From positions 140,315-204,314 of the forward strand of contig NZ_JBMSEE010000005.1 in NCBI RefSeq assembly GCF_049446155.1: a stretch of 64,000 nucleotides of DNA, written 5' to 3'. Both the position numbers and the translations under genes were made by a program. This DNA comes from Caldimonas sp. KR1-144. GTDB taxonomy: Bacteria > Pseudomonadota > Gammaproteobacteria > Burkholderiales > Burkholderiaceae_C. Below, piece by piece: positions 4,943 to 58,875 of the stretch. The notes beneath the pieces were generated by a model. It was not told the DNA's origin. It did not search any database and was given only the letters and a program-made list of their open reading frames with translations. How positions within the stretch are numbered: position 1 is the stretch's first letter; every line of letters starts with the position of its first letter.

Positions 4943-6478
<1,536 letters not shown>

Positions 6479-28058: not shown

Positions 28059-29425
28059 AAGTCCTCGTCTGCGGCTCCACCGGCTGCGTCGGCCAGGCCG
28101 TCGTGCGCGCGCTGCGCTCGCGCGGCCACGAGGTCGTCGAGGGTGCGCGCAGCGCGCGTGACGGCGACCGCTCGATGCAGGTCGACTTCATGCGCGAGCG
28201 CACGCCCGAGGCGTGGGCGGCGCGGCTGTCGGCGCGCGGCGTCGACGCGGTCGTCAACTGCGTCGGCATCCTGATGGCCTCGCGCACGCAGAGCTTCGAA
28301 CGCGTGCACGCCGCCGGCCCGATCGAGCTGTTTCGCGGCGCGGCCCGGGCCGGCGTGCGCCGCGTCGTGCAGATCTCGGCGCTCGGCGTCGGCGACGACG
28401 CCGACAGCCTCGCGATGCCCTACCTGCGCAGCAAGCTGCTGGCCGACGAATCGCTCGCCGCGCTGCCGCTGGACTGGACCGTGCTGCGACCCGCGCTGGT
28501 CTACGGTCCGCGAAGCCAAAGCGCGGCGCTGTTCGCCACGCTCGCGAGCCTGCCGGTCATCAGCCTGCCCGGCGGCGGCACGCAGCGGCTGCAGCCGATC
28601 CACGTCTTCGAGCTGGCCGAAGCCGTCGCGCGCCGTATCGAGGACGACACGCCGCATCGCGAGGTGCTGGAGCTCGGCGGCGCCGACGTGCTGAGCTACC
28701 GCGAGATGCTCGCGCGCTATCGCGACGCGCTCGGACTCGGCGAGGCACTGTGGTTGCCGCTGCCGATGCTGCTGATGAAGCTGGCCGGCTGGCTGGCCGA
28801 AGCGCTGCCGCAGAAGGTGTTCTGCCGCGACACGATGCGCCTGCTCGAGCGCGGCAGCGTGCCGGCGCGCAACGCGGCCGCGGCCTTGCTGGGCCGCGCG
28901 CCGACCGCGTTCGCGCAAGGCCTCGCGATCACGCGGCCCGAGGCGATGCTCAACCTGCGCGTCGAGCTCAGCCCACCCGTGGCGGCGCTGATGCGCGCCT
29001 CGCTGGCCTTCATGTGGCTCTACACCGCCCTCGTCAGCGCGCTGCTGCGCGACGCCTCGGGCGTGATGGCGCTGCTGGCGCGCTGCGGCTTCGAAGGCGA
29101 TGCCGGCATCGCGGCCCTGGTCTTTTCCTGCACGCTCAATACGGCGCTGGGCCTGATGGTGCTGATGCGGCCCTCGGCACGGGTCTATGCGCTGCAAAGC
29201 GCGGCCATCGTCGGCTACACCGTCACGGCGGCCGTGCGCATGCCCGAGCTGACGATCGACCACTGCGGTCCGCTGGTGAAGAACCTGCCGATGCTCGCGG
29301 CGGTGCTGACGCTGTGGCTCGCACACCGCGCCCCAAAAGAACAGGGGCGTCCATTTCGCGATGAACGCCCCATCATGAAAGGCCTCGCAGTGAGGCTCAA
29401 CCCTTCACGCACACCACCTGCTTGA
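28055..29425 (+). CDS. NAD(P)H-binding SDR-like reductase fused to C-terminal DoxX-like 4-TM domain
   Basis: GTG coupled start (GTGA). Rossmann motif VLVCGSTGCVGQAVVRAL. The C-terminal ~130 aa are hydrophobic and DoxX-like. Confidence 0.7.
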   Translation: MKVLVCGSTGCVGQAVVRALRSRGHEVVEGARSARDGDRSMQVDFMRERTPEAWAARLSARGVDAVVNCVGILMASRTQSFERVHAAGPIELFRGAARAGVRRVVQISALGVGDDADSLAMPYLRSKLLADESLAALPLDWTVLRPALVYGPRSQSAALFATLASLPVISLPGGGTQRLQPIHVFELAEAVARRIEDDTPHREVLELGGADVLSYREMLARYRDALGLGEALWLPLPMLLMKLAGWLAEALPQKVFCRDTMRLLERGSVPARNAAAALLGRAPTAFAQGLAITRPEAMLNLRVELSPPVAALMRASLAFMWLYTALVSALLRDASGVMALLARCGFEGDAGIAALVFSCTLNTALGLMVLMRPSARVYALQSAAIVGYTVTAAVRMPELTIDHCGPLVKNLPMLAAVLTLWLAHRAPKEQGRPFRDERPIMKGLAVRLNPSRTPPA

Positions 29426-30614
29426 GCGTGTGCGCCACTTCCACCAGGTCGCGCTGCGCGGCCATCACGGCGTCGATGTCCTTGTAGGCCGCGGGCGTCT
29501 CGTCGATGACGTCCTTGTCCTTGCGGCACTCGACGCCTTCGGTCGCGGCGCGGTGGTCGGCCAGCGTGAAGCGACGCTTGGCTTCGCCGCGGCTCATCGT
29601 GCGGCCGGCGCCGTGCGAGCACGACTCGAACGACTGCGCGTTGCCCTTGCCGCGCACGATGTAGCTGCGCGCGCCCATGCTGCCGGGAATGATCCCCAGC
29701 TCGCCGGCCTTGGCGCTCACCGCGCCCTTGCGGGTCACGTAGACCTCCTCGCCGAAGTGGCGTTCCTTCTGCACGTAGTTGTGGTGGCAGTTCACCGCCT
29801 CGACGTGGCTCTGGAAGCTCTTGTGGATCACCGTCTTGGCGGCCTCGATCACGCGCTTCATCATCACCTCGCGGTTGATGCGCGCGAACTGCTGGGCCCA
29901 GCCGACCGCGCGCACGTAGTCGCCGAAGTAGCGGCTGCCTTCCTCGAAGTAGGCGAGGTCGCGGTCGGGCAGGTTGGCCTGATGGCGCATCGCGTCCTGC
30001 TTGGCCAACTCGATGAACATCGTGCCGATGGCGTTGCCGACGCCGCGCGAGCCCGAGTGCAGCATGAACCAGACGAAGCCGGCTTCGTCGAGGCAGACCT
30101 CGATGAAGTGATTGCCCGTGCCCAGCGTGCCGAGGTGCTGGATGTGGTTGGTCTTGGCCAGCTTGGGGTAGTCGCGGCACAGCTCGGTGAACCCGGGCTC
30201 GAGCTGCGCCCAGGCCGTGTTCACCGAGCCGGGCGGCTTCTGCCACGCGCCCGGATCGCGCGGGCCCGGTGAGCGCCCGTGCGGCACCGCGCGCTCGATC
30301 GCCGCGCGCAGCGGGCCGAGGTTGTCGGGCAGGTCCTCGGCCGTCAGCGTGGTCTTGCAGGCGATCATCCCGCAGCCGATGTCCACGCCCACGGCCGCCG
30401 GGATGATGGCCTTGAGCGTGGGAATCACCGAGCCGACGGTCGCGCCGATGCCGAAGTGGACGTCGGGCATCGCGGCGATGTGCTTGAAGACGATGGGCAG
30501 GCGCGCCGCGTTGATCAACTGGCGCTTGGCCGCGTCTTCGACCGGCACGCCCTGCGTCCACATCTTCAGCGGCACGCCGCCGGGGACGTCTTCGTGGATG
30601 TAGTTGGTTCCCAT
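29397..30614 (-). CDS. rtcB: RNA-splicing ligase RtcB
   Basis: 405 aa. Metal-binding H/C motifs (PDVHFGIGATVG, GNHF, CSHGAGR). Full-length RtcB architecture. Confidence 0.9.
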   Translation of the reverse strand: MGTNYIHEDVPGGVPLKMWTQGVPVEDAAKRQLINAARLPIVFKHIAAMPDVHFGIGATVGSVIPTLKAIIPAAVGVDIGCGMIACKTTLTAEDLPDNLGPLRAAIERAVPHGRSPGPRDPGAWQKPPGSVNTAWAQLEPGFTELCRDYPKLAKTNHIQHLGTLGTGNHFIEVCLDEAGFVWFMLHSGSRGVGNAIGTMFIELAKQDAMRHQANLPDRDLAYFEEGSRYFGDYVRAVGWAQQFARINREVMMKRVIEAAKTVIHKSFQSHVEAVNCHHNYVQKERHFGEEVYVTRKGAVSAKAGELGIIPGSMGARSYIVRGKGNAQSFESCSHGAGRTMSRGEAKRRFTLADHRAATEGVECRKDKDVIDETPAAYKDIDAVMAAQRDLVEVAHTLKQVVCVKG

Positions 30615-30632: not shown

Positions 30633-31376
30633 TCACTGCACGCATCCTCGTCGCGCAGCGTCCGCATAGTCCTTGAGTTCCTGATCGGCCTTGTCGATCG
30701 AGCGGATGAACGCCTCGACGATGCGATCGATGATGTCTTGTCGCTCGAGATGGCGACCGCAATGGCCGATGCCGTGCAGCGCCGCCACTTGGACCTCGCG
30801 GCAGGGCACGTCCAGCATCTCGCGCAGCACCTGCCAGACGGCGTCGCGCCAGCGGGGCTCGTGCCGCACGTTCCAGAACGTGGGCCACACGTCGAACCAC
30901 ATGTAGCAGACGTAGGCCAGCCGGCCCGTCGTGGTGCCGATCGGCACCCGCAGCGACGCCAGCCTCGGCCCGATGCACTGTCGCCAGAGCATCGGCATGG
31001 CCCGCATCATGCGCATGGCTTCGTCAAGCGCAACGCTTGCATCGATGGCCGCGAACGGCACGTTGCTGACGGCGTTGCTCATCACGTAATTGAGCCCCAT
31101 GCCGACCTGTTCGTCGCCGAAGGGCGCGAGATCGATCCCGGCCCGGGCGAAGAGAACGGTCTGGATCCGCGTCCACTCCAAAGGTGTCGCTTCGAAGTCG
31201 GGCTCGTCGATGTTCCAGTACCACTCCTGATCATGGGTTTGTGGCACCGGTCGATCGAATAGATAGCGCAGCGCCGCTTCGTAGCGTTGCGGCGCGAGGC
31301 CCACGCCTTGCGGGCTCCAGTCCGGCGCTTGTGCGACGCGGCGGCGCTGTGCGCGCGTCTGTCGGCTGTTCATCAT
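30633..31376 (-). CDS. hypothetical Trp-rich protein (247 aa) between SPFH gene and rtcB
   Basis: GGAAGGAAG SD. WYWNIDEPDFEATPLEWTRI...VWPTFWNVRHEPRWRDAVWQ. No recognisable domain. Confidence 0.6.
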   Translation of the reverse strand: MMNSRQTRAQRRRVAQAPDWSPQGVGLAPQRYEAALRYLFDRPVPQTHDQEWYWNIDEPDFEATPLEWTRIQTVLFARAGIDLAPFGDEQVGMGLNYVMSNAVSNVPFAAIDASVALDEAMRMMRAMPMLWRQCIGPRLASLRVPIGTTTGRLAYVCYMWFDVWPTFWNVRHEPRWRDAVWQVLREMLDVPCREVQVAALHGIGHCGRHLERQDIIDRIVEAFIRSIDKADQELKDYADAARRGCVQ

Positions 31377-31432: not shown

Positions 31433-32569
31433 TCAGCGTAGCTTCACGAGCCCGTTGAGCACCTGGTCCAGGCCGCCGAACACCGAGATCTTGTCGATGC
31501 GTTCGGCCACCCGTTCCAGCGTCTCCAGCTCCTTCAGACGCAAGGCGGTGGGGTTGTCTTCCATCACCTTGGCCGTGTTGAGCAGCGAGCGCGTCGCGGC
31601 GGTTTCTTCGCGACGACGGATCACGTTGGCCTCGGCCGCCTTGCCGGCCTCGACCACCTGGGCGAGGATGGTCTTCATCTCGCCCGGCAGCACGATGTCC
31701 TTCAGGCCGGCGCTGTCGAGCGCGAGGCCGTAGGCCTCGAGCTTGGCGCGCACATGAGCGGTCACGACCTCGTCAATCACCGTCTTGTTCTCCAGCAGCT
31801 CGTCGAGCGTGCGGGTGCCCACCGCGGCGCGCAGCGCGAACTGCAGCTCGCGGTACAGGTGTTCGGCGGGCTTGTTCAGCGCCGTAAAGGCCGCGAGCAC
31901 GTCGGTGTAGCGGAAAGTGGCCGACAGGTTCAGGCGCAGCCCGACCTTGTCGCGGGTCAGGATCTCCTGGCCCGTCACCTCCACCGCCTGCAGTCGCAGG
32001 TCGACCAGCTCGACCGACACGTTGCGGTTGAACTTCCAGAACGCGTACGAGCCCGACGCGAGCACGCGCTCGGCCTTGCCGTCGACCGACAGCACGCCGG
32101 CGCCGGATTGCGGCACCTGCACCTGCAGCACGCCGGCCAGGCCCGTCACCGCGCGCGGGCGCAGCTGGGTCTGGATCAGTCGCGCGACCACGGGCGCCGG
32201 CACCTCGGCGGTCTCGGCGATGTCGATCACCTCGACGGCCACGTCGACCAGGCCCTTCCAGTACAGGCGCCGCGCGCCCGGCGGCAGCAGCTCGACCAGC
32301 ACGCCGTTCTCGCTGCGCAGGCCAACCTGGGTCTCGCCGAGCTCGACGCGCACGAACTCGGCCTCGACCACCTCGGGCTCCTTGGCCAGCAGGTAATCGG
32401 CGAGGCCGTGCGCGAAGGCCGGCTGTTCGAGCGCAAAGGTCTCGACACGCAGCGCGTCGAAGCCGTCGAACAGCCAGTGCGTGCCGGGCTGCAGCACGCG
32501 TTCGAAATCGCCGTTGCGCAGCAGCAGGCCGCGCTCGTTCTTCTTGACGGTGACACGCTTGAGCTTCAT
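31433..32569 (-). CDS. SPFH/band-7 domain protein (soluble, with ~200 aa N-terminal extension)
   Basis: AGGAG SD. The C-terminal half carries the band-7 core (ILTRDKVGLRLNLSATFRYTDV...AGLKDIVLPGEMKTILAQVVEAG). No TM helix. Confidence 0.8.
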   Translation of the reverse strand: MKLKRVTVKKNERGLLLRNGDFERVLQPGTHWLFDGFDALRVETFALEQPAFAHGLADYLLAKEPEVVEAEFVRVELGETQVGLRSENGVLVELLPPGARRLYWKGLVDVAVEVIDIAETAEVPAPVVARLIQTQLRPRAVTGLAGVLQVQVPQSGAGVLSVDGKAERVLASGSYAFWKFNRNVSVELVDLRLQAVEVTGQEILTRDKVGLRLNLSATFRYTDVLAAFTALNKPAEHLYRELQFALRAAVGTRTLDELLENKTVIDEVVTAHVRAKLEAYGLALDSAGLKDIVLPGEMKTILAQVVEAGKAAEANVIRRREETAATRSLLNTAKVMEDNPTALRLKELETLERVAERIDKISVFGGLDQVLNGLVKLR

Positions 32570-32825
32570 GGGAGTTCTCCTTCTTTGAAAGCGTGTGGTT
32601 GGAATGGGTGCCGTTACAGCCGCGGCCGCGGACGACGAGTGCCTGGGCCCCGCAGCCACGCTGCGCCTCGGCGGGGTCCGCGTCGGATGCCGCCTCGGCT
32701 GGTCGTGGACGAGAAGCCCCGCGTGCTCGGCGCACGGGCGGCCGCCGCTGATGGGCCGGGGCGTTGCGCCTGGCGGCGCGCGGCCTTCGGCCCACGTTCG
32801 GCGGGTGGTCTTGCGACCGTTCTTG

Positions 32826-32896
32826 GGTTGGAGCGGGATTCGAACCCGCGACAGACGAATTGAGGATTCGTTGCTCTTCCGCTGAGCTAACCAACG
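32826..32896 (-). tRNA. degenerate tRNA-like gene (anticodon loop UCCUCAA, reads CUC/Glu; C33; mismatched acceptor termini)
   Basis: Good D arm (GCUC/GAGC) and T arm (GCGGG-UUCGAAU-CCCGC). Acceptor stem has C1.C72 and U7.U66 mismatches. Confidence 0.35.
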
Positions 32897-32897
32897 T

Positions 32898-32967
32898 TGG
32901 CAGTGATGCCGGGAGTCGAACCCGGACCCTTGCGGGATCCCTCTTCATCACTCGGGTGTGCATCGCT
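32898..32967 (-). ncRNA. truncated mini tRNA-like element (acceptor stem + T arm + CCA, central GNRA-capped hairpin instead of D/anticodon arms)
   Basis: AGUGAUG...GGGAUCCC-GCAA-GGGUCC-GGG-UUCGACU-CCCGG-CAUCACU-G-CCA. 55 nt from a perfect 7-bp acceptor; 70 nt if the outer AGCGAUG is used. Confidence 0.4.
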
Positions 32968-33102
32968 TCCGGCAGGGCGGCATGGACGGCGGCGACGCGC
33001 CTTGTTCACGAGACGCGGCCGCCGCCCACCGGCGGGGTTCACGAACCCCTGGGCCTGTGAGCCTTTGCCTTCGACGACGAACGCTTGTGCGCCGGGCTTC
33101 GA

Positions 33103-33678
33103 TCACCCCAGGCGCGATCCTTTCGGCAGGCGCGCGGCCAGCCACTCGTGCACGTCGGCGCGGATGTGCCGGCCTTCGAGCAGAAAGGCCTCGAAGCGGC
33201 TCGGCACGTACGGCAGGTACAGCAGCGGCATGCCCGCTTCCTCCGGCGTGCGGTCGGCCTTGCGGCCGTTGCACGCGCGGCAGGCCGTGACGAGGTTCAT
33301 CCAGGCCCAGCCGCCGCCGCGCGACTGCGGAACGATGTGCTCGCAGGTCAGCGCGCGATCGTCGAAGCGCTGGCCGCAGTACGCGCAGGTGTGGCGGTCG
33401 CGGCGAAACAGCTTGGCGCGACCGAACGCCGGCGCGGCATCGAACAGGTTGATGCGCGGCGCGCCACGCAGCGCGACGATCGGATGCACGTCGATCAGCG
33501 ACTGGCGGCCGCGCGCGACATTGAAGCCGCCGCGCAGCGTGGCCAGCGGACCGTCGCCGTCGACCCACGCCACCGCGCCCGTGGCCACGTGAACGGCCGC
33601 CTGCTCGAGCGAGATCCACGCGTGCGGCGTGCCCTGGATGTCGAGTTGCAGCACGTGGCTGTGGTGTCGTTGGTGCAT
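33103..33678 (-). CDS. HNH endonuclease (191 aa)
   Basis: AGGAGG SD. Motif CAYCGQRFDDRALTCEHIVPQSRGGGWAWMNLVTACRACNGRK (C-x2-C...H...N...C-x2-C). Embedded in the tRNA array. Confidence 0.85.
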   Translation of the reverse strand: MHQRHHSHVLQLDIQGTPHAWISLEQAAVHVATGAVAWVDGDGPLATLRGGFNVARGRQSLIDVHPIVALRGAPRINLFDAAPAFGRAKLFRRDRHTCAYCGQRFDDRALTCEHIVPQSRGGGWAWMNLVTACRACNGRKADRTPEEAGMPLLYLPYVPSRFEAFLLEGRHIRADVHEWLAARLPKGSRLG

Positions 33679-33723
33679 CGGTGGCCTCCTTTCACGGGCC
33701 GTTGTGTGCGTGTTTGATGAACG

Positions 33724-33799
33724 TGGCTGCGGCGGCTGGATTCGAACCAGCGTGCACCGGGTCAAAGCCGGTTGTCTGAGGCCCCTCGACGACGCCGCA
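33724..33799 (-). tRNA. tRNA-Gln (UUG)
   Basis: Manual cloverleaf. Anticodon loop CUUUGAC. T arm CUGG-UUCGAAU-CCAG. CCA encoded. Confidence 0.75.
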
Positions 33800-33815
33800 T
33801 CGAATGTGGATGGAT

Positions 33816-33900
33816 TGGTCCCCTCGGTCCGAGTCGAACGGACATGCCTTGCGGCGCCGGCTTCTGAGACCGGTGCGTCTTCCTGTTTCGCCACGAGGGG
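33816..33900 (-). tRNA. tRNA-Leu (CAG), type II
   Basis: 85 nt with long variable arm. Anticodon loop CUCAGAA. CCA encoded. Confidence 0.75.
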
Positions 33901-33918
33901 TTGTGATGCGCGCTTGGG

Positions 33919-33990
33919 GGTGGCCGGCCGGAATCGAACCGACATCGGCGGGGTCACGGCCCGCAGCCCTGCCATTGAGCGACGGTCACC
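33919..33990 (-). tRNA. tRNA-His (GUG) with G-1/C73, non-canonical anticodon loop CCGUGAC (C33) and A4.C69 mismatch
   Basis: G-1 and C73 His identity elements are present. Anticodon GUG. Leader and trailer extend the acceptor helix by about 11 bp (gcgcttggggg / cccccaagcgc). Confidence 0.65.
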
Positions 33991-34004
33991 CCCAAGCGCG
34001 TGGG

Positions 34005-34080
34005 TGGTCTCGGCGGCAGGGCTCGAACCTGCGACCTCATGCTCCCGAAGCACGTGCGCTGCCAGCTGCGCTACGCCGAG
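34005..34080 (-). tRNA. tRNA-Pro (CGG)
   Basis: Anticodon loop UUCGGGA. Canonical arms. CCA encoded. Confidence 0.75.
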
Positions 34081-34087
34081 ATGGGGG

Positions 34088-34166
34088 TGGTACCCCGTGC
34101 ACGACTCGAACGTGCGACCTCCGGCTTCGTAGACCGGCGCTCTTCAATCCGCTGAGCTAACGAGGT
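34088..34166 (-). tRNA. tRNA-Arg (ACG)
   Basis: Anticodon loop CUACGAA. 11-nt D loop. CCA encoded. Confidence 0.7.
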
Positions 34167-34176
34167 CGGGAACGAC

Positions 34177-34252
34177 TGGCGCCTCGTGCGGGAATCGAAC
34201 CCGCGGCTTCCGGCTAGACAGGCCGGCACTCTGGCCGCTGAGTTAACGAGGC
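34177..34252 (-). tRNA. tRNA-Asp (GUC) with unusual U37 (loop CUGUCUA)
   Basis: Canonical acceptor, D and T arms. Position 37 is a pyrimidine. Confidence 0.65.
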
Positions 34253-34262
34253 ACGATGAAAC

Positions 34263-34337
34263 TGGTGGAGGCGACAGGCATCGAACCTGCGACCCGCTGC
34301 TTGCAAAGCAGCCGCTCTACCGCTGAGCTACACCCCC
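34263..34337 (-). tRNA. tRNA-Ala (UGC)
   Basis: G3.U70 identity pair. Anticodon loop UUUGCAA. CCA encoded. Confidence 0.8.
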
Positions 34338-34445
34338 AGGGAAATGAATGCCATCCGGTGACGGATTCCGGCGCCGCCCAATCGTTGCGGCCGGTTTCCA
34401 CCCTCGAAGCGCGAGCTCGACGAGGGCTTCTGGTTGTTGAGTGAT

Positions 34446-34521
34446 TGGCATCGCGTGCGGGAATCGAACCCGCGTTCCCGGAATGAAAGCCCGGTGTCCT
34501 CGGCCACTAGACGAACGCGAC
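34446..34521 (-). tRNA. tRNA-Glu (UUC)
   Basis: GUCGCGUUCGUCUAGUGGCC...CUUUCAU..., close to the bacterial tRNA-Glu consensus. CCA encoded. Confidence 0.8.
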
Positions 34522-34545
34522 GTGGTCATGCCTTGATTGCTCGAG

Positions 34546-34689
34546 GCTCACTTCGGCTGTGCCCGCCGCGCGAGCATCCCGTCGGATGAGGTGTCTCGCT
34601 GCACGTGGCCCGGGCCCGGGCCGCGCACATCCCGCTCGCCCACACCAGGTTCGCGCGGCTGCGGAGTGCGAGGACACACCCGAAGTGAG
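34546..34689. repeat. 11-bp inverted repeat (gctcacttcgg / ccgaagtgagc) bracketing a ~120-bp GC-rich spacer between tRNA-Glu and tRNA-Gly
   Basis: Seen directly. The distal arm abuts the tRNA-Gly 3' end. The spacer contains cccgggcccggg. Confidence 0.3.
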
Positions 34690-34759
34690 CGGATGACGAG
34701 GTTCGAACTCGTGGCCTCGACCATGGCGTGGTCGCGCTCTGCCAGCTGAGCTACATCCG
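34687..34759 (-). tRNA. tRNA-Gly (GCC) with non-canonical anticodon loop ACGCCAU (C33)
   Basis: Perfect acceptor, D and T arms. Discriminator U. CCA not encoded. Confidence 0.65.
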
Positions 34760-34923
34760 CATTTTTTGCAAGCTCGCGCGCCGGCCAGTACCGGCGGCTG
34801 CTTGCGGCAAGTTGTGAAAGAGCAGGGCCACCGTTGCCGGTGGGGCCGTCCCAGGGAGAAGGCCTGTGCGCGGCCGCCGGCCGCGCATCGGGTGAAGTAG
34901 GTCGTTTCGAGGGCATAAAGCGA

Positions 34924-34956
34924 AGAGGCCCGGTTCCTCTCGGAATCCGGGCCTCT
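34924..34956. terminator. strong hairpin (10-bp GC stem agaggcccgg/ccgggcctct, 13-nt loop), terminator-like, upstream of tRNA array promoter region
   Basis: Seen directly. On the minus strand it is followed by UUCGCUUUAUG. Confidence 0.35.
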
Positions 34957-35179
34957 GCGTACAGAGCGTGGAGGGCGCGCGCCTAGGCGCCGTCCTCTCC
35001 CGGAGACAAGGGATCCTCGCTGCCGCCATTGCGGCCCATTGCCTGCGCGAGGTGCGCGCACGCCTGGCCACCAAAGGCGGCTGCGGCGTGAAGGGCATTG
35101 GGTCGATAAAGCACGATGGATCTCTGTGAATGGAATCGGTTGAATTCGAGCGAGGCTCTTTCGAGCGACAGGCGGAACT

Positions 35180-35194
35180 GTAAAGAGTCTTTAC
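35180..35194 (+). promoter_or_regulatory. 7-1-7 palindrome GTAAAGA-G-TCTTTAC in low-GC region upstream of XRE regulator gene
   Basis: Seen directly. Lies in a ~190-bp AT-richer segment. Confidence 0.3.
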
Positions 35195-35259
35195 TGCGTC
35201 GTCAAGCGGCGGCGACAATCGCATTCGCTTCGTTGCAACGGATCCGCGCTTTCTCTCCA

Positions 35260-35643
35260 GTGAGCAACATCACCGTCATTCGCCGACAGAACGCGCTCGC
35301 GCTGTTCCAGGCCTGGGCCGAGGCCGCGGTCGCTGCCGGGGCCGCGCCCAAGGGACTCGAGCAGGCCTTTGCCCGCGAGCTCGAGATCTCGCCCTCGATG
35401 TGGAGCCAGATCAAGTCCTCGCGGCCGATCGGCGACAAGCTCGCGCGGCAGATCGAGCAGCACTGCGCCAAGCCCGTCGGCTGGCTCGACGAGGAGCGCG
35501 AGTCGGCCGGCCTCACCGCGGCGGAGCAGCAGTTCCTCGCGCTGGCGTTGAATGCCTGGCGCGCGACCAACAGCGCCGGTCGACGCGAACTGCGCGCTTG
35601 GCTCTCGGGCCGCGTGGCCAAGACGGACCCGCATTCGACCTAG
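35260..35643 (+). CDS. XRE-family helix-turn-helix transcriptional regulator (start uncertain; GTG 35260 or ATG 35116)
   Basis: HTH segment GLEQAFARELEISPSMWSQIKSSRPIGDKLARQIEQH matches the XRE/Cro pattern. Confidence 0.5.
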   Translation: MSNITVIRRQNALALFQAWAEAAVAAGAAPKGLEQAFARELEISPSMWSQIKSSRPIGDKLARQIEQHCAKPVGWLDEERESAGLTAAEQQFLALALNAWRATNSAGRRELRAWLSGRVAKTDPHST

Positions 35644-36564: not shown

Positions 36565-37497
36565 CTATGACACCAGCCGGCCGCGTCGATCGGCCACGCC
36601 GATGTGCGCGCGCATGCCGGCGTTGAACGCGAGATAGTCGGCCTCGATGCCGTCGCTGAAGATCACGCCGCCTTCGGCCATCAGCGAGGTCAGCTCGAGC
36701 CGCGCGTCGCGCGTCACGTAGCCCCAGGCCGGAAGGACCTGCGTCGTGCGGCTCGGGAAGGGCTCGCGCACCGCGAACAGCAGGCGCTCGGTGTCCCAGG
36801 GCATCGGCCGTTCCTCGATGTGCGGCTCGGCGCCTTCGAGCCCGTGCGCGATCGCCTGAGCGCCAGCCAGCACCGAGCGCATCCAGCCGGTGGAGCCCAG
36901 GCCGGTCGAGACGATGATGCCGCTCGACGACTGCACCGCATGCCGCGGACCGTGCTGCAGCTCGTAGCGCGCCGAGGTGTGGCTGCGCGGGCCGATGAAG
37001 AGGTCGTTGACGGCGTGGAGCTGCTGCCCGTCCTGCAGCCGCGCGACCGCCATCGTCACCGTCTTGCAGGGCCGCTTGTCGGCCAACGCCTCGGGCAGCA
37101 GCTTGACGATGTCGGCCACGCCGAACGGCAGCAGCACGCCGTCGTAGCGGCCCGGGTCCGGGTTCACGCCGATCAGCGGCTGGCCGTCGAGGTACTTCAG
37201 CGTGTTGGCGACCAGGCCGTCCTGGCCCAGCGCCATCACGACGTCGTCGGGCCCGAACAGGAAGTTGGGCAAGAGCGCGCGATCGACCACCTGATAGCGC
37301 CCGTGCAGCTCGAGCCGCTCACGCACCGCGGCGAGTGCGGCGCGGTAACCGCGGTGCTCGCGCTCGTAGTCGGCGAAATCGGCGCCGAGGTGTTCGACGT
37401 AGAAGCGCGCCTGCTCCAGCGTGGCGAAGCGAACCAGCAGCTCTTCCAGTCGCGTGTGCCGCGTCACCAGCACCACCTTGCGTTCGAGCGAGGCCAT
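36565..37497 (-). CDS. ATP-NAD kinase family protein
   Basis: GQDGLVANTL (GGDG-like) and NAD kinase C-terminal fold motifs. Downstream of the SPFH gene in the same operon. Confidence 0.75.
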   Translation of the reverse strand: MASLERKVVLVTRHTRLEELLVRFATLEQARFYVEHLGADFADYEREHRGYRAALAAVRERLELHGRYQVVDRALLPNFLFGPDDVVMALGQDGLVANTLKYLDGQPLIGVNPDPGRYDGVLLPFGVADIVKLLPEALADKRPCKTVTMAVARLQDGQQLHAVNDLFIGPRSHTSARYELQHGPRHAVQSSSGIIVSTGLGSTGWMRSVLAGAQAIAHGLEGAEPHIEERPMPWDTERLLFAVREPFPSRTTQVLPAWGYVTRDARLELTSLMAEGGVIFSDGIEADYLAFNAGMRAHIGVADRRGRLVS

Positions 37498-37513
37498 GGC
37501 AACCTCCGCGTCC

Positions 37514-38554
37514 TCAGGCCGCCCTGGCAGCGGCTCGCGCGCTGCCGGTGCCCATCAGCGAGCGCAGCAGGTCGGGCGAGATGTTGAGTTCGCCGATCTT
37601 GTCGGCGCGCTCGGCCAGGCCGCCGAAGGCCTGCGCGATCAGCTGGCCGGGCTCCATGCCCACCGACGCGAAGGCCTGGATCACCTTCGGGTCGGCCTTC
37701 TCGAGCGCTTGCATCAGCGCGCCGACGCGGTGCGCCTCGGCCTCGGCCAGCGCGCGCGTGTTCTCGGCCTGGCTGGCGACGAGCTGCTTGCGCTCGTCCT
37801 CGAGCGCAATGCTCGAACGCATGTCGGCCTGCGCAAGCCGGGCCTTCTTGTCCTGGATGCTGGCCTCGGTTTCCACCTCGGTCTCGCGGATCGTGCGCTT
37901 CTTGCGCTCGACGGCGATCTCGGTCTCCAGCTCGCTCTCGCGGATCTGGCGCTCGTTCTCCACCGCAGCGTTGCGGCGCAGGAAGATCGCCTCGTCGGCC
38001 GACTTGAGGATGGCCTCGCGCGCCTCGGCTTCGAGCGCGCGCGCGGTCTCCGGCGTGGGGCGCACCGCCTCGATCGCCAGGCCCAGCACCTCCAGGCCCA
38101 GCGCGGCGATTTCGGGGTGCACGGCGAGCGCGCGCAGCGCCTCGGCACCGAGCTCGTCGCCCGCCTGCAGCGCCTGGCGCAGCGCGCGGCGCTTCATGCC
38201 CTGCTGGATCAGCACGCGCAGCAGGCTCAGCACGCGTTGCGGGAGTTTTTCGGGGTCTTCGGACACGTGTCCCTTGCCGCCGGCGGCGAGCGAGAAGTCG
38301 AGCATGGCCGCGGTCTTGCGCGGCTCGCTGATGCGCCAGGTGAGCTGGCCTTGCACCGTCAGCGCCTGGAAGTCCGCCGTCATGTAGGGCTCGATGAAGT
38401 CGTCGCGGCGGCTGGCCACCGGCACCGCGACCAGCGTGCTGGTAGGCGAGAAGACGAACAGCGACAAGCCTGCGCCTTCACGCACCAGCTTTCCGCCGCG
38501 GAACTGCATCAGGTAGGTGGTCGGGGGCGTCTTGATGTATCGGAAGCCGAGCAT
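37514..38554 (-). CDS. SPFH/band-7 domain protein (soluble, coiled-coil C-terminus)
   Basis: AAGGAG SD. YIKTPPTTYLMQFRGGKLVREGAGLS and the flotillin-like EA-rich coiled coil. Confidence 0.8.
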   Translation of the reverse strand: MLGFRYIKTPPTTYLMQFRGGKLVREGAGLSLFVFSPTSTLVAVPVASRRDDFIEPYMTADFQALTVQGQLTWRISEPRKTAAMLDFSLAAGGKGHVSEDPEKLPQRVLSLLRVLIQQGMKRRALRQALQAGDELGAEALRALAVHPEIAALGLEVLGLAIEAVRPTPETARALEAEAREAILKSADEAIFLRRNAAVENERQIRESELETEIAVERKKRTIRETEVETEASIQDKKARLAQADMRSSIALEDERKQLVASQAENTRALAEAEAHRVGALMQALEKADPKVIQAFASVGMEPGQLIAQAFGGLAERADKIGELNISPDLLRSLMGTGSARAAARAA

Positions 38555-38578
38555 GGCGTTTCTCCTTGGACTTGTGCC

Positions 38579-38603
38579 ACATAGTGGCTTCAGCCCACTA
38601 TGT
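38579..38603. promoter_or_regulatory. perfect 9-bp inverted repeat ACATAGTGG-N7-CCACTATGT in divergent promoter region; candidate NrtR operator
   Basis: Seen directly. Flanked by the AT-rich segment ggataatagaactaag. Confidence 0.4.
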
Positions 38604-38683
38604 AAGTTGGATAATAGAACTAAGATCGGCGGCGTCAAGGCCCGCGTTGCGCGGACCGCACCGAAACCGACCGAACGTGACCC

Positions 38684-53031: not shown

Positions 53032-55539
<2,508 letters not shown>

Positions 55540-55647
55540 TCACCGGGCCCAAGCGCTAGCCACGGCCCCTTAAGAAACGTCAAAGCGGGCGCTGACGCCC
55601 GCTGTTCGATCGGAAGCGGGCAGCGTCCCGGCCCGCCTTGATCCGCG

Positions 55648-56754: not shown

Positions 56755-56798
56755 GTCAGCCTCTTAAAGGTGGTCGTTGTAGTGGAGGGCGGCCTGTC

Positions 56799-56955
56799 TT
56801 GTGGACAAGGCCATTTTCACCTGATTCGGCAAGGGCTTAGCGTCGGGGCAGCCCTGTGGAACGAGGCCTGGGACAAGTGCTCGCGAAACTGAGCAACTTT
56901 GCGTTGGCGTCGATCGCTGTGGACAACGCAAGCCTTGTTCCTGTTTTGTTCACAG
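56799..56955. promoter_or_regulatory. cluster of DnaA boxes (TTGTCCACA x2, TTGTTCACA, TGTGGAAC) in lower-GC dnaA-dnaN spacer; oriC candidate
   Basis: Boxes at about 56799-56808, 56865-56872, 56917-56925 and 56947-56955. Confidence 0.5.
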
Positions 56956-56998
56956 ACTTGTCACTTGACGGGAAAAGGGCGCGCGTGCTCGGCTTCGA

Positions 56999-58396: not shown

Positions 58397-58403
58397 GTTC
58401 TGT

Positions 58404-58474
58404 TTTGTGGACAAGATCTATCGAGCGGCCGGATTCTACGCAGGAGAAGGTCCGCGAAGCGAGGGTTATCCACA
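58404..58474. promoter_or_regulatory. DnaA boxes in dnaA upstream region (TTGTCCACA; perfect TTATCCACA at 58466-58474)
   Basis: Seen directly. Confidence 0.5.
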
Positions 58475-58801: not shown

Positions 58802-58875
58802 TCCCTGCGCCTGACGGCGCCGCGTCCGCACCGAAGGCCGGCGTGCCACCCGGGCGGCACAGGCGCTGGCAGCCG

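What the first reader, a model, noticed from the sequence alone, without database searches (positions are those of the whole stretch)
32826..34760. Compact nine-tRNA array with non-canonical anticodon loops, split by an HNH endonuclease gene and trailed by degenerate tRNA-like elements
Nine tRNA genes (Gly-GCC, Glu-UUC, Ala-UGC, Asp-GUC, Arg-ACG, Pro-CGG, His-GUG, Leu-CAG, Gln-UUG) are packed on the minus strand within about 1.04 kb.

By manual folding, tRNA-His has anticodon loop CCGUGAC and tRNA-Gly has ACGCCAU. Both carry C at the near-universally conserved U33. tRNA-Asp has U at position 37, which is normally a purine. tRNA-His also has an A4.C69 acceptor mismatch while keeping G-1/C73. 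The other six fold canonically.

Directly downstream, a 191-aa HNH endonuclease gene with a perfect AGGAGG RBS is inserted into the array. It is followed by two more tRNA-like sequences that are clearly degenerate.

High-GC host-like composition argues against recent phage origin. Even so, altered anticodon loops, pseudo-tRNAs and an HNH nuclease are what is seen in tRNA arrays of mobile elements, and phage tRNAs with anticodon-loop substitutions have been shown to evade host anticodon nucleases. Together with rtcB 2.2 kb away, this locus may be a tRNA backup/repair island against tRNA-targeting toxins, not an ordinary housekeeping tRNA operon.
Basis: partly seen in the sequence, partly recalled or inferred. 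Interest (0 to 1): 0.78.

Follow-up and report, generated by a model that had tools for sequence, protein, structure and literature searches.

The report
Spare-tRNA array fused to RNA-repair operon
A chromosomal cassette in Caldimonas, shared by many related Burkholderiales, joins a repressor-controlled array of spare tRNA genes (some with conserved rule-breaking anticodon loops), a conserved HNH nuclease gene, two tRNA-like RNAs, a membrane SPFH protein and the RNA ligase RtcB. This links the long-puzzling tRNA arrays to RNA repair.

Summary
ARAGORN and the Rfam tRNA model confirm nine minus-strand tRNAs in 1.04 kb with the stated loops: Gly and His with C33, Asp with U37.

The locus is not a housekeeping operon and not a decaying pseudo-array. 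It is a reduced copy of a cassette found in at least 80 Burkholderiales genomes and on the Methylibium PM1 conjugative plasmid. The cassette runs: divergent phage-type repressor, operator-bearing promoter, conserved rare-codon leader ORF plus terminator, 1-27 tRNAs in conserved order, and a highly conserved HNH gene.

The HNH gene does not split the array; it is its fixed 3' end. The two "degenerate" tRNA-like elements are selected structured RNAs (20 of 33 pairs compensatory). They occur only with the SPFH/Band-7 gene and match the predicted "band-7-associated tRNA" of RtcB repair operons.

In sister genomes the same array-HNH unit adjoins a Ro60/YrlA/RtcB operon instead. Asp-Y37 and Gly-C33 are conserved across genera in tRNAs whose stems covary, so these loops are selected.

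The best reading is a stress-inducible tRNA supply-and-repair cassette. Induction and nuclease resistance are inferred, not shown. It is a new variant of known kinds: tRNA array units, and RtcB repair operons.

The parts
35260..35643 (+). Divergently transcribed HTH repressor candidate (127 aa from GTG 35260)
   Evidence: Matches PHROG phrog_12107 'transcriptional repressor' at 2.8e-10. Weak match to phage CI repressor 7nkv (E 0.086). No Pfam hit. Homologs at 59-80% identity sit divergent from the array in 48 of 81 loci and on the Methylibium PM1 plasmid (63%).
35177..35205 (-). Sigma-70-type promoter TTGACG-17-TACAGT. The palindrome GTAAAGAcTCTTTAC (35194-35180) lies between and overlaps the hexamers and is the likely operator.
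   Evidence: It is the only promoter-like site found in 32500-35400. The block is at least 80% conserved across loci. A related palindrome occurs on the PM1 plasmid.
34983..35114 (-). Leader ORF (43 aa, GTG start, ends ...SPGEDGA, stop TAG)
   Evidence: An ORF with a conserved N-terminus (MKxxNVIRTHRP..G..AFV) and C-terminus (LDRxEDxxHPGEGSA*) is present in 48 loci, and both motifs stay in frame despite lengths of 34-69 aa. C-terminal codon entropies are 0.49/0.57/0.91 for positions 1/2/3. Rare codons make up 24% against 4.4% in window genes. The window copy has a diverged N-terminus.
34917..34955 (-). Intrinsic-terminator hairpin (GAGGCCCGG...CCGGGCCTC, then TTCGCTTT), 29 nt after the leader stop codon
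   Evidence: The consensus GGCCCGGAUUCCGAAAGGAUCCGGGCC-UUUUU is conserved 26-40 nt after the leader stop in 48 loci and on the PM1 plasmid. The U-tract is weaker in the window, so the simple scan does not call it.
33724..34760 (-). Nine-tRNA array: Gly-GCC, Glu-UUC, Ala-UGC, Asp-GUC, Arg-ACG, Pro-CGG, His-GUG, Leu-CAG, Gln-UUG
   Evidence: The order is a subset of the conserved order seen in arrays of up to 23 (chromosomal) or 27 (plasmid) tRNAs. Asp has U37; Gly and His have C33.
34522..34686 (-). Conserved ~150-165 nt non-tRNA spacer after tRNA-Gly, closed by the helix CUUCGGGUGUG/CACAGCCGAAG
   Evidence: Most columns are at least 80% conserved across 22 arrays. No Rfam match. Function unknown.
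34338..34445 (-). Conserved ~93-108 nt non-tRNA spacer after tRNA-Glu
   Evidence: Conserved across 26 arrays with predicted hairpins. No Rfam match. Function unknown.
33103..33678 (-). HNH nuclease gene (191 aa), RBS AGGAGG at 33690-33685
   Evidence: Pfam HNH_5/HNH. Full-length match to PHROG phrog_16726 at 4.7e-26. 100% identical to Caldimonas sp. KR1-144, with 1899 relatives. The 80 genome loci are 77-88% identical. Invariant C98, C101, H114, N128, C133, C136, N137. 40-46% identical to the array-associated HNH of M. avium and Nostoc plasmids.
32898..32952 (-). tRNA-like element A: a D-arm-less mini-tRNA with a 7-bp acceptor stem, a GCAA-tetraloop hairpin in place of the anticodon arm, a T-arm, and an encoded G-CCA end
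   Evidence: Alignment A1 and RNAalifold. All three helices show compensatory changes. Weak mascRNA-like and YrlA-like Rfam matches lie below threshold.
32825..32896 (-). tRNA-like element B: invariant D- and T-arms, short imperfect acceptor stem, no CCA, hypervariable 'anticodon'. Called tRNA-Glu-CUC in the window.
   Evidence: In other loci it is called Phe, Met, Ile, Cys, Val, Lys or Ser. Its anticodon stem and T-stem covary. It occurs only where the SPFH gene is present. The B. cenocepacia homolog has a GAAA tetraloop.
31433..32569 (-). SPFH/Band-7 (slipin-family) protein
   Evidence: Pfam Band_7 at 1.4e-28. 76-91% identical in 41 loci. 53-66% identical full-length homologs lie next to tRNA-like elements in Burkholderia (with RtcB) and E. 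coli (with RlaP).
30633..31376 (-). Unknown 247-aa protein in the variable slot between SPFH and RtcB
   Evidence: No Pfam, NCBIfam, PADLOC or PHROG match. A homolog is seen in only one other locus, L008. Other loci are either empty here or carry a ClpP-like SDH protease.
29397..30614 (-). RtcB RNA ligase
   Evidence: Pfam RtcB at 1.4e-127. An RtcB match lies within the fetched flank in 58 of 81 loci.

Best explanation
Window 29.4-35.6 kb is one accessory cassette that couples tRNA supply to tRNA repair. It has two parts.

**Upstream part: a tRNA array unit of the L-array kind.**
- A phage-type HTH repressor gene is transcribed divergently from a sigma-70 promoter. A palindrome between the promoter hexamers is the likely operator.
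- The transcript first crosses a short, rare-codon-rich leader ORF whose stop codon lies 29 nt before a strong terminator.
- It then runs through nine tRNA genes and a conserved HNH nuclease gene.

**Downstream part, same strand, no promoter of its own detected: a Band-7-type RtcB repair operon.**
- Two tRNA-like RNAs, an SPFH/Band-7 membrane protein, a variable gene, and the RtcB ligase.

**Proposed working (inferred).** The unit is normally repressed. When translation or the tRNA pool is damaged by anticodon nucleases from toxins, competitors or defence systems, or by ribosome inhibitors, it is derepressed. The array then adds spare tRNAs. A subset (Asp with a pyrimidine at 37; Gly, His and elsewhere Val and Lys with C33 or varied 32/38) carries loop changes that avoid loop-directed enzymes. 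RtcB reseals cleaved tRNAs, with the Band-7 protein and the tRNA-like RNAs as accessory factors.

**Shown here:** anatomy, conservation, covariation and genetic linkage.

**Inferred:** repression and induction, read-through control, nuclease resistance, and the role of HNH.
For: 1. **Array-HNH linkage.** In 50 scanned loci the HNH is nearly always directly preceded by a same-strand array of 1-23 tRNAs in one conserved order. Homologous HNH genes sit in or next to 24-27-tRNA arrays on Methylibium, M. avium and Nostoc plasmids.
2. **Accessory status.** Content varies from 0 to 23 tRNAs. Caldimonas mangrovi carries a different subset. The outer flanks are not shared between genomes.
3. **Link to repair.** An RtcB match is present in 58 of 81 loci. 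Architectures differ: tRNA-like pair/SPFH/RtcB as here; RtcB directly after or before HNH; or RtcR | Ro60 - YrlA (79.4 bits, above gathering) - RtcB in L013.
4. **The trailing RNAs are functional.** 96.3% of cells pair against 36-44% in slid controls. 20 of 33 pairs are compensatory and 0 of 500 shuffles reach this. The pair occurs strictly with SPFH. The same pair sits behind an RtcR/sigma-54 promoter upstream of slipin-RtcB in B. cenocepacia. It matches the 'band-7-associated tRNA' of Burroughs & Aravind 2016 as described in bioRxiv 10.1101/312249.
5. **The odd loops are selected.**
   - Asp has U37 in 34 of 38 copies and C37 in 3 more, and C37 on the PM1 plasmid.
   - Gly-GCC has C33 in 23 of 31.
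   - Both tRNA families keep 100% / 99.6% pairing with 10 and 7 compensatory pairs.
   - In His, positions 38 and 32 are the two most variable of 73 columns.
   - Arg-ACG, Leu, Pro, Gln, Ile, Asn and Ser loops stay canonical.
6. **Control region.** Promoter, palindrome, leader ORF and terminator are conserved in 48 loci and on the PM1 plasmid.
7. **Literature.**
   - The Anabaena L-array is silent, is induced by translational stress, and is co-regulated with an HNH gene and rtcB (PMC8421152).
   - The TrcR regulon holds the array, HNH, rtcB, a slipin gene and GNATs (PMC10272220).
   - Mycobacterial arrays carry an XRE regulator and HNH in ~87% of G2 arrays (PMC5966550).
   - Phage tRNAs with loop changes are proposed or shown to escape tRNA-targeting defences (PMC10264068; titles and abstracts listed).
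Against: - No expression, charging or cleavage data exist for this organism.
- Canonical copies of tRNA-His, Gly and Asp elsewhere in the genome could not be retrieved, so redundancy is inferred from relatives only.
- The window copy shows some wear: only 9 of 22 or more tRNAs, a unique His A4.C69 mismatch, a Gly that lost one C of CCA, a diverged leader N-terminus and a weak terminator U-tract.
- A thermodynamic ribosome-footprint scan found no consistent antiterminator, so the way the terminator is bypassed is unknown.
- C33 and U37 may impair decoding, so these tRNAs might not serve translation at all.
- No tRNA-targeting toxin was seen in the window.
- The function of HNH is unknown, and the AlphaFold model failed.
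Confidence: 0.6

Rival explanations
1. Decaying relic. The locus is a shrinking remnant of a horizontally acquired tRNA array that no longer does anything useful in Caldimonas sp. KR1-144, and its odd features are neutral decay.
For: The array is reduced to 9 tRNAs where relatives have 20-23. Lesions specific to the window: His A4.C69, Gly CCA reduced to CA, leader N-terminal motif lost, and a terminator U-tract so weak that the scan does not call it.
Against: All nine tRNAs score 45.8-65.3 bits. Asp-U37 and Gly-C33 are shared by dozens of genomes with covarying stems. The promoter, palindrome, HNH, SPFH and RtcB are intact and highly similar to relatives. The tRNA-like pair scores 121 bits on the family model.
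Confidence: 0.13
2. Mobile-element cargo. The array unit (repressor, leader, tRNAs, HNH) chiefly serves plasmids or phages as an anti-defence device against host tRNA depletion. The HNH is a homing-type endonuclease that spreads or reshuffles it. Chromosomal copies next to rtcB are secondary landings.
For: The complete unit is on the conjugative Methylibium PM1 megaplasmid and on Polaromonas, Variovorax and Burkholderia sp. M701 plasmids. The HNH and the repressor match phage protein families. Chromosomal sites vary. A PcfJ-like plasmid gene is embedded in larger arrays. The literature view of arrays as anti-defence and of HNH as a driver of array diversity is in PMC12803027 and PMC5966550, and the SegB precedent is cited in PMC8421152.
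Against: Only 3 of 2.9 million viral contigs carry the HNH, each at a contig edge. The window is core chromosome about 22 kb from dnaA with no integrase or transfer genes. GC matches the host. The HNH is 77-88% identical at a fixed position in all 80 loci, unlike sporadic selfish nucleases. The recurrent RtcB linkage in several architectures argues for a host-level function.
Confidence: 0.17
3. Non-translational tRNAs. The loop-variant tRNAs (C33, U37, and the aberrant His) are not decoders. They act as decoys that soak up tRNA-directed nucleases or modifying toxins, or as substrates or cofactors of the repair machinery.
For: U33 and purine-37 are near-universal requirements for decoding (textbook knowledge). 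Array tRNA-His mostly lacks G-1 and an encoded CCA, and has a leader-trailer helix extension. A sponge role was proposed for Anabaena operonic tRNAs (PMC8421152). The neighbouring tRNA-like RNAs clearly do not decode.
Against: Most array members are fully canonical and encode CCA. Anticodons are kept invariant while the flanks vary. Identity elements are present: Ala G3:U70, Gln U1:A72, window His G-1:C73. 23 of 26 Anabaena array tRNAs are charged in vivo (PMC8421152).
Confidence: 0.08
4. Ordinary housekeeping tRNA operon that happens to lie near rtcB.
For: Host-like GC and a core-chromosome position near oriC. The anticodons match abundant codons of a high-GC genome (inference).
Against: Content varies from 0 to 23 tRNAs and location differs among close relatives. 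The locus has repressor, leader and terminator control. It carries non-canonical loops. It has plasmid-borne homologs.
Confidence: 0.02

Closest known systems
L-arrays / tRNA array units with an associated HNH gene (Anabaena PCC 7120 trn operon; mycobacterial plasmid and phage arrays; Methylibium PM1 plasmid array)
   Same: Dense same-strand tRNA genes that add redundant isoacceptors. Patchy distribution and variable sites. A conserved HNH gene in or next to the array, 40-46% identical to the one here in the HNH core. A nearby XRE/HTH-type regulator, as in mycobacteria. rtcB is a neighbour or co-regulated gene, as in cyanobacteria.
   Different: Only 9 tRNAs here, below the 20-gene definition of Tran et al. 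It is chromosomal and near oriC. The regulator is a CI-like HTH, not the RHH protein TrcR. It has a leader ORF plus terminator, which is not reported for the other arrays. It is physically fused to the repair operon, whereas in Anabaena the same parts are scattered as a regulon.
Band-7 / 'b7a-tRNA' / RtcB RNA-repair operon (predicted by Burroughs & Aravind 2016) and the RtcR-controlled rsr-yrlA-rtcBA operon of Salmonella
   Same: RtcB sits next to an SPFH/Band-7 protein and a tRNA-like non-coding RNA. The B. cenocepacia counterpart has the same tandem RNA pair. Sister loci carry the Ro60/YrlA version.
   Different: No RtcR and no sigma-54 promoter motif in the window cassette. The module lies downstream of a tRNA array and HNH gene. 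The RNA here is a tandem of two elements (mini-tRNA A plus tRNA-like B). I could not read the original paper, so I do not know whether it describes one element or two.
Phage tRNAs with anticodon-loop substitutions that escape tRNA-targeting defences (mycobacteriophage C1 and coliphage tRNAs against VapC/PrrC/colicins; T5 tRNAs against retron PtuAB and PARIS)
   Same: Supernumerary tRNAs whose anticodon is kept while loop-flanking positions differ from the norm. The effect is confined to a subset of isoacceptors.
   Different: Here the carrier is a bacterial chromosome or plasmid cassette, not a lytic phage. The changes include the near-universal U33 and R37 themselves. No cognate nuclease is known and no resistance has been measured.
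Leader-peptide transcription attenuators (trp/his operons; antibiotic-responsive leaders such as bmrB-bmrCD)
   Same: A short conserved ORF rich in rare codons ends just upstream of an intrinsic terminator that precedes the regulated genes.
   Different: No convincing antiterminator alternative was found. The regulated genes are tRNAs. The ORF samples about 18 amino acids and is not rich in any one. Membership is not established.
Phage T4 SegB homing endonuclease in the T4 tRNA gene cluster
   Same: A nuclease gene embedded in a tRNA gene cluster and proposed to mobilise it (cited in PMC8421152).
   Different: SegB is a GIY-YIG enzyme, not an HNH (my recollection). Here the nuclease is highly conserved and positionally fixed across genera. 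No cleavage site or homing is known.

Membership tests
tRNA array unit (Tran et al. 2016) / L-array (Santamaria-Gomez et al. 2021) | At least 20 tRNA genes in the array | tested here: not met
   9 tRNAs in the window, or 10 counting the tRNA-like B element. Homologous arrays in relatives reach 20-23, and 27 on the PM1 plasmid. The window copy is therefore a reduced homolog and does not meet the formal definition.
tRNA array unit (Tran et al. 2016) / L-array (Santamaria-Gomez et al. 2021) | Density of at least 2 tRNA genes per kb, same orientation, close enough to be co-transcribed | tested here: met
   9 genes in 1037 bp, all on the minus strand. Only one promoter-like site lies upstream.
tRNA array unit (Tran et al. 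2016) / L-array (Santamaria-Gomez et al. 2021) | Patchy distribution and variable genomic location, pointing to horizontal transfer | tested here: met
   Outer flanks are not shared in any of the 80 loci. The complete unit is on a conjugative plasmid.
tRNA array unit (Tran et al. 2016) / L-array (Santamaria-Gomez et al. 2021) | Supernumerary: anticodons redundant with tRNA genes elsewhere in the genome | not testable with these tools
Redundancy is inferred from relatives that lack these members at the locus.
tRNA array unit (Tran et al. 2016) / L-array (Santamaria-Gomez et al. 2021) | Associated conserved HNH endonuclease gene | tested here: met
   Literature.
Band-7 / b7a-tRNA / RtcB RNA-repair operon | RtcB ligase gene adjacent to a Band-7/SPFH gene | tested here: met
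   Pfam RtcB 1.4e-127 and Band_7 1.4e-28, same strand, separated by one variable ORF. They are directly adjacent in most relatives.
Band-7 / b7a-tRNA / RtcB RNA-repair operon | tRNA-like non-coding RNA encoded next to the Band-7 gene | tested here: met
   Elements A and B lie upstream of SPFH. They covary and co-occur with SPFH in all 39 aligned loci. A homolog sits upstream of the B. cenocepacia slipin gene (75 bits). The separation from adjacent ordinary tRNA pairs (up to 66 bits) is modest.
Band-7 / b7a-tRNA / RtcB RNA-repair operon | RtcR (CARF-sigma-54 activator) and a sigma-54 promoter controlling the operon | tested here: not met
   No RtcR gene in or beside the cassette. No TGGCAC-N5-TTGC motif between HNH and element A (read). 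Both are present in B. cenocepacia and RtcR in L013.
Anabaena TrcR translational-stress regulon | [quoted passage not shown] | tested here: not met
   The regulator here is a CI/XRE-like HTH. The operator is a palindrome between -35 and -10. The gene set is nevertheless the same: array, HNH, rtcB, slipin, and a GNAT next door.
Anabaena TrcR translational-stress regulon | Induction by ribosome-targeting antibiotics | not testable with these tools
   Needs expression experiments.
Nuclease-evading tRNAs (phage type) | Anticodon-loop differences from the host's own isoacceptor at nuclease recognition or cleavage positions | tested here: inconclusive
   The loops depart from the universal U33/R37 rule and the departures are conserved. 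The host's housekeeping copies were not available for comparison.
Nuclease-evading tRNAs (phage type) | Demonstrated resistance to a cognate anticodon nuclease | not testable with these tools
   Needs cleavage assays. No candidate nuclease was found in the window.
Leader-peptide transcription attenuator | Translated short ORF immediately upstream of an intrinsic terminator | tested here: met
   The ORF is conserved in frame in 48 loci, with its stop 26-40 nt before the terminator, and shows third-position variation in its C-terminal codons. Translation itself has not been shown.
Leader-peptide transcription attenuator | Mutually exclusive antiterminator structure favoured by a stalled ribosome | tested here: not met
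   A footprint-constrained MFE scan in 8 loci gave no consistent loss of the terminator. Only a 7-nt repeat, AUCCGGG, could compete (sequence reading).
HNH homing endonuclease | HNH catalytic core with zinc-binding cysteines | tested here: met
   C98, C101, H114, N128, C133, C136 and N137 are invariant. Pfam and PDB matches cover the HNH core only.
HNH homing endonuclease | Sporadic presence or absence at otherwise identical sites, and a defined DNA target | not tested
   All loci were collected through the HNH itself, so its absence could not be scored. No target is known.

The most novel reading that the evidence does not exclude
The cassette is a self-contained tRNA-damage response with its own sensor. 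The conserved leader ORF uses 24% rare codons and samples about 18 of the 20 amino acids, and it ends 29 nt before a terminator. On this reading it acts as a "pan-tRNA" attenuator: ribosome slowing at any depleted or cleaved tRNA lets transcription run into the array. The array then delivers replacement tRNAs, some hardened against anticodon-loop enzymes by C33 or Y37, together with the HNH nuclease, the tRNA-like cofactor RNAs and RtcB. Regulation of tRNA genes by a leader peptide, and naturally selected C33/U37 decoders, would both be new.
Probability: 0.2. Interest if true: 0.8.

Novelty: new variant of a known kind. Interest (0 to 1): 0.55.

Why it matters
tRNA arrays have been catalogued for years, but experimental clues to their function come essentially from one cyanobacterium. 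Here, in a different phylum, the components of that cyanobacterial regulon (array, HNH, rtcB, slipin) are welded into one cassette. The same array-HNH unit is found beside three or more architectures of RtcB repair operon. This is independent genetic evidence that arrays belong to a tRNA-damage response.

The cassette also offers:
- natural, conserved tRNAs that break the U33 and purine-37 rules, usable to test decoding limits and nuclease evasion;
- a covariation-supported structure for the never-validated "band-7-associated tRNA";
- a compact regulatory region (repressor, operator, leader ORF, terminator) that can be tested directly.

Tried and rejected
1. **AlphaFold2 of the HNH protein** from a 30-sequence alignment. 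Mean pLDDT was 41, so the model was unusable and no fold search was run. The N-terminal ~90 residues remain uncharacterised.
2. **Ribosome-footprint-constrained MFE scan** of the leader in 8 loci. No consistent antiterminator appeared (timed out, 35), so attenuation is kept only as a hypothesis.
3. **Covariance model R1 of the tRNA-like pair.**
   - It also hits adjacent ordinary tRNAs at 40-66 bits.
   - The B. cenocepacia element at 75 bits is therefore only modestly separated.
   - The E. coli slipin-upstream element was not detected.
4. **Burroughs & Aravind 2016** could not be read. It is cited second-hand through bioRxiv 10.1101/312249.
5. **Search for housekeeping tRNA-Asp on Burkholderiales replicons.** It returned only other plasmid arrays. 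Canonical copies in this genome could not be checked.
6. **Viral contig scan.** Three edge hits only, so a phage-borne origin for this copy is rejected.
7. **PADLOC and NCBIfam.** Only generic, sub-threshold HNH-domain matches (Cas9, IscB, PtuB), so the locus is not filed under any defence system.
8. **Sigma-54 promoter or second sigma-70 promoter** downstream of the terminator or of the HNH gene. None found.
9. **Codon-position entropy in the leader N-terminus.** It gave no coding signal (0.99/1.05/0.84). Only the C-terminus did.
10. **Idea that the trailing tRNA-Glu-CUC call is a tenth array tRNA.** Rejected because its "anticodon" differs in nearly every genome.

Full report
**1. The observation**

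ARAGORN finds ten tRNA genes in the whole 64-kb window, all on the minus strand between 32825 and 34760. The Rfam tRNA model finds the same ten at 45.8-65.3 bits, against a gathering score of 29.

Nine of them form a 1037-bp array: Gly-GCC, Glu-UUC, Ala-UGC, Asp-GUC, Arg-ACG, Pro-CGG, His-GUG, Leu-CAG, Gln-UUG.

- Gly A-C-GCC-A-U (C33)
- His C-C-GUG-A-C (C33)
- Asp C-U-GUC-U-A (U37)

The model also marks the non-pair at His 4:69. The other six loops are canonical.

The 191-aa ORF at 33678..33103 has AGGAGG six bases upstream of its ATG and is an HNH protein (Pfam HNH_5, 7.6e-17). Two tRNA-like sequences follow. RtcB (Pfam 1.4e-127) starts 2.2 kb further on. GC is host-like.

**2. Organism and chromosomal setting**

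The HNH protein is 100% identical to one from Caldimonas sp. KR1-144.

The window also holds dnaA, dnaN, gyrB, yidC and mnmE at 53-63 kb. The rest is ordinary regulators, transporters and enzymes, with no integrase, transfer or toxin genes. The cassette therefore lies in the core chromosome, about 22 kb from the replication origin region.

**3. The array is one copy of a widespread unit, and the HNH gene is its fixed end**

The HNH protein has 1899 detectable relatives. 80 genome loci were fetched from Rubrivivax, Piscinibacter, Ideonella, Aquabacterium, Rhizobacter, Variovorax, Methylibium, Ramlibacter and others, at 77-88% identity.

In the 50 loci scanned, the HNH gene is nearly always directly preceded by a same-strand tRNA array of 1 to 23 genes. 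The order is conserved: Gly, (Thr), Glu, (Ala), Asp, Phe, Arg-ACG, (Tyr, Trp, Cys, Arg-UCU), Asn, Ile, Pro, His, Lys, Leu, Met, (Ser), Lys, Gln, Val, Arg-CCG.

The Caldimonas array is a reduced subset of this order. Caldimonas mangrovi carries a different subset. None of the 80 loci shares the window's outer flanks.

Related HNH genes occur on plasmids in three phyla:
- They are 72-74% identical on the Methylibium PM1 and Polaromonas megaplasmids.
- They are 40-46% identical in the HNH core on M. avium and Nostoc plasmids.
- The three plasmid loci fetched (Methylibium PM1, M. avium, Nostoc) each have the HNH in or beside an array of 24-27 tRNAs.

This matches published descriptions of L-arrays and tRNA array units with a conserved HNH gene, and in mycobacteria an XRE regulator as well (PMC8421152, PMC5966550, PMC12803027). 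The HNH gene is therefore not an insertion that splits the array.

**4. The control region**

A 127-aa protein that matches a phage repressor family (phrog_12107, 2.8e-10) is transcribed divergently from the array. It has a weak match to CI repressor in the PDB.

The only promoter-like site in 32500-35400 is TTGACG-17-TACAGT at 35205..35177. The palindrome GTAAAGAcTCTTTAC lies between and overlaps the hexamers, and the whole block is at least 80% conserved.

Downstream lies a short ORF found in 48 loci:
- Its N-terminus (MKxxNVIRTHRP..G..AFV) and C-terminus (LDRxEDxxHPGEGSA*) are conserved, and the middle varies. Length runs from 34 to 69 aa in most loci.
- Both ends stay in frame across all these lengths.
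- The stop codon lies 26-40 nt, usually 29 nt, before a strong terminator, GGCCCGGAUUCCGAAAGGAUCCGGGCC-UUUUU.

The evidence on translation is mixed:
- Third-codon positions of the C-terminal Gly and Ala codons vary freely while positions 1 and 2 are fixed. That is a coding signature.
- The N-terminal codons give no such signal.
- The ORFs use 24% rare codons against 4.4% in window genes, and about 18.5 different amino acids each.

A footprint-constrained folding scan found no consistent antiterminator. How the terminator is passed is unknown, and attenuation remains a hypothesis.

The Methylibium conjugative plasmid has the same regulator (63% identical), a related palindrome, a leader ending ...HPGEGAA*, the same terminator, 27 tRNAs and the HNH gene. 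The array unit therefore travels on a mobile vehicle.

**5. The odd anticodon loops are selected, not decay**

Loop states across all arrays:

| tRNA | Non-canonical state | Frequency |
|---|---|---|
| Asp-GUC | U37 | 34 of 38, plus C37 in 3 more and on the PM1 plasmid |
| Gly-GCC | C33 | 23 of 31 |
| Val-UAC | C33 | 6 of 11 |
| His-GUG | C33 | at least 12 of 56 |

- In tRNA-His, positions 38 and 32 are the two most variable of 73 columns. The anticodon is GUG in every His call. No other call occupies the slot after Pro in the arrays listed.
- Arg-ACG, Leu-CAG, Pro, Gln, Ile, Asn and Ser keep fixed, canonical loops.
- The Asp family keeps 100% of stem cells paired, with 10 of 21 pairs showing compensatory change. 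The Gly family keeps 99.6%, with 7 of 21. Both far exceed the shuffled and slid controls.

These are well-maintained cloverleaves in which a pyrimidine at 37 or a C at 33 is retained. The Nostoc array Asp has G37, so the Asp feature belongs to the Burkholderiales lineage of arrays.

A pattern of kept anticodons with altered flanks, confined to some isoacceptors, is what has been proposed for phage tRNAs that escape anticodon nucleases (PMC10264068). No nuclease is known here, and nothing has been measured.

**6. The trailing "degenerate" elements are the RNA component of a Band-7/RtcB repair operon**

The two elements after the HNH gene are present only in loci that also carry the SPFH gene. 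A tandem T-arm motif was found in about 40 loci, and 39 of them were aligned.

- **Element A** (32952-32898) is a D-arm-less mini-tRNA. It has a 7-bp acceptor stem, a GNRA-tetraloop hairpin where the anticodon arm would be, a T-arm and an encoded NCCA end.
- **Element B** (32896-32825) has invariant D- and T-arms, a short imperfect acceptor stem and no CCA. Its "anticodon" differs in nearly every genome.

On the combined structure, 96.3% of cells pair against 36-44% when partners are slid. 20 of 33 pairs show compensatory change, and 0 of 500 shuffles reach the observed values.

Full-length homologs of the SPFH protein occur in other bacteria:
- **B. cenocepacia** (66% identical). The gene order is RtcR, a sigma-54-type promoter, the same tandem A+B RNA, slipin, then RtcB. 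Element B there has a GAAA tetraloop. The family model scores it 75 bits, the best non-training hit, although pairs of ordinary tRNAs reach 66 bits.
- **E. coli STEC639**. A sigma-54-type promoter and a T-arm-like element precede slipin and the RNA-repair nucleotidyltransferase RlaP.

This is the arrangement that Burroughs & Aravind (2016) predicted as RtcB plus Band-7 plus a "band-7-associated tRNA". That RNA has never been validated experimentally, according to bioRxiv 10.1101/312249. I could not read the original paper.

**7. The array-HNH unit is repeatedly coupled to RtcB**

An RtcB match lies within the fetched flank in 58 of 81 loci, and several of the rest are cut short. The architectures differ:
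- tRNA-like pair, SPFH, RtcB, as in the window
- RtcB directly after the HNH gene
- a 54-55%-identical RtcB paralog directly before the HNH gene
- in L013, which has a 22-tRNA array: HNH, then RtcR on the other strand, then Ro60, a bona fide YrlA Y RNA (79.4 bits, gathering 69), a second YrlA-like element, and RtcB

In Anabaena, the silent L-array, its HNH gene, rtcB, a slipin gene and GNAT genes form one repressor-controlled regulon that is induced by translation inhibitors (PMC8421152, PMC10272220).

The Caldimonas cassette holds the same set in one place, and a GNAT gene sits next to the repressor.

**8. Interpretation**

The best-supported reading is an accessory, repressed tRNA supply-and-repair cassette (confidence 0.6).

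- **Shown:** the parts, their conservation, the covariation and the linkage.
- **Inferred:** induction by translational or tRNA damage, evasion of loop-directed enzymes by the variant tRNAs, cofactor roles for the Band-7 protein and RNAs A and B, and any role for the HNH nuclease.

Rival readings, which are not mutually exclusive:

| Reading | Confidence |
|---|---|
| Relic in decay in this particular strain | 0.13 |
| Plasmid or phage anti-defence cargo with a homing-type HNH | 0.17 |
| Decoy or other non-decoding tRNAs | 0.08 |
| Ordinary housekeeping operon | 0.02 |

Signs of wear in the window copy:
- only nine tRNAs
- a unique His A4.C69 mismatch
- a Gly whose CCA has become CA
- a diverged leader N-terminus
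- a weak terminator U-tract

**9. Novelty**

Each half of the locus belongs to a known kind: tRNA array units with an HNH gene, and RtcB repair operons with Band-7 and a tRNA-like RNA. The idea of nuclease-evading spare tRNAs is already published for phages.

I did not find the following in the literature I searched:
- the fusion of the two halves into one cassette in Burkholderiales, with several alternative RtcB partners
- the CI-like repressor, leader ORF and terminator control region
- the lineage-wide conservation of U37/C37 in tRNA-Asp and C33 in tRNA-Gly
- the tandem A+B structure of the Band-7-associated RNA, supported by covariation

I rate it a new variant of known kinds, of moderate interest (0.55).

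Noticed in passing
window 33910-33996 (-); tRNA-His orthologs in loci L001-L079: Array tRNA-His is aberrant across the family. Position -1 is T or C instead of G in 43 of 47 distinct copies. C73 is followed by CCC(A/T) instead of CCA in 53 of 56. The 5' leader TTGGG(T/G) pairs with the 3' trailer (C)CCCAA, which extends the acceptor helix by 5-6 bp. The window copy does have G-1, and it has a unique A4.C69 mismatch.
   Followed up: partly
window 34522-34686 (-) and 34338-34445 (-): Two non-tRNA spacers inside the array, after tRNA-Gly and after tRNA-Glu, are conserved in length and sequence across 22-26 arrays. They have predicted helices and no Rfam match. They may be unrecognised structured RNAs or processing elements.
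   Followed up: partly
window 34685-34690 (-): The window's tRNA-Gly ends ...CGC-T-CAC where 21 orthologs have ...CGC-T-CCA. One C of the encoded CCA has been lost, so the 3' end would need the CCA-adding enzyme.
   Followed up: yes
window 53032-62726: gyrB, dnaN and dnaA on the minus strand, with yidC and mnmE on the plus strand. This is the chromosomal replication-origin region, about 22 kb from the cassette.
   Followed up: no
window 36565-39130 (-) and 16377-17768 (+): A second, larger SPFH/Band-7 protein (538 aa) with an unknown 310-aa partner lies just upstream of the cassette, beyond the GNAT gene. An NfeD-family protein, a usual SPFH partner, lies at 16.4-17.8 kb. Neither is conserved with the cassette in other genomes.
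   Followed up: no
L057 3700-4848 (also L007, L017, L020, L032, L041): Larger arrays carry a ~1.2-kb insertion between tRNA-Pro and tRNA-His. In L057 it encodes a PcfJ-like protein (Pfam 1.6e-13), a family known from conjugative plasmids.
   Followed up: partly
L081 (Methylibium PM1 plasmid) 6200-7552: The 27-tRNA plasmid array has HD-domain and AlkB (alkylation repair dioxygenase) genes embedded among the tRNAs, with NADAR and DUF1064 genes just upstream. This is a further link between arrays and nucleic-acid repair.
   Followed up: no
L087 (E. coli STEC639) 4690-6928: Between DUF3811 and lysC, this E. coli strain carries a sigma-54-type promoter (TGGCACgcttcTCGCA), a T-arm-like element (GGGTTCGATTCCCA), a slipin gene 53% identical to the window's SPFH, and the RNA-repair nucleotidyltransferase RlaP. 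No RtcB lies adjacent.
   Followed up: partly
L001 8242-9327 and the equivalent slot in L003, L011, L027, L058, L065: The slot between SPFH and RtcB is variable. It holds a ClpP-like SDH-type serine protease in L001 and an unrelated unknown 247-aa protein in the window and L008. It is empty in most loci.
   Followed up: partly
L052, L061, L063, L064, L071, L075 at about 4740-5940: A divergent RtcB paralog, 54-55% identical to the window's, sits between the array and the HNH gene in some Ideonella and Caldimonas mangrovi loci, in place of or in addition to a downstream RtcB.
   Followed up: no
window 32960-33102 (-): The GC-rich stretch right after the HNH stop codon folds into a long hairpin (-70.9 kcal/mol, z -1.9) with no U-tract. 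Just before element A lies a conserved GGAAGCGGC.GAU motif. This may be a processing or protein-binding site.
   Followed up: no
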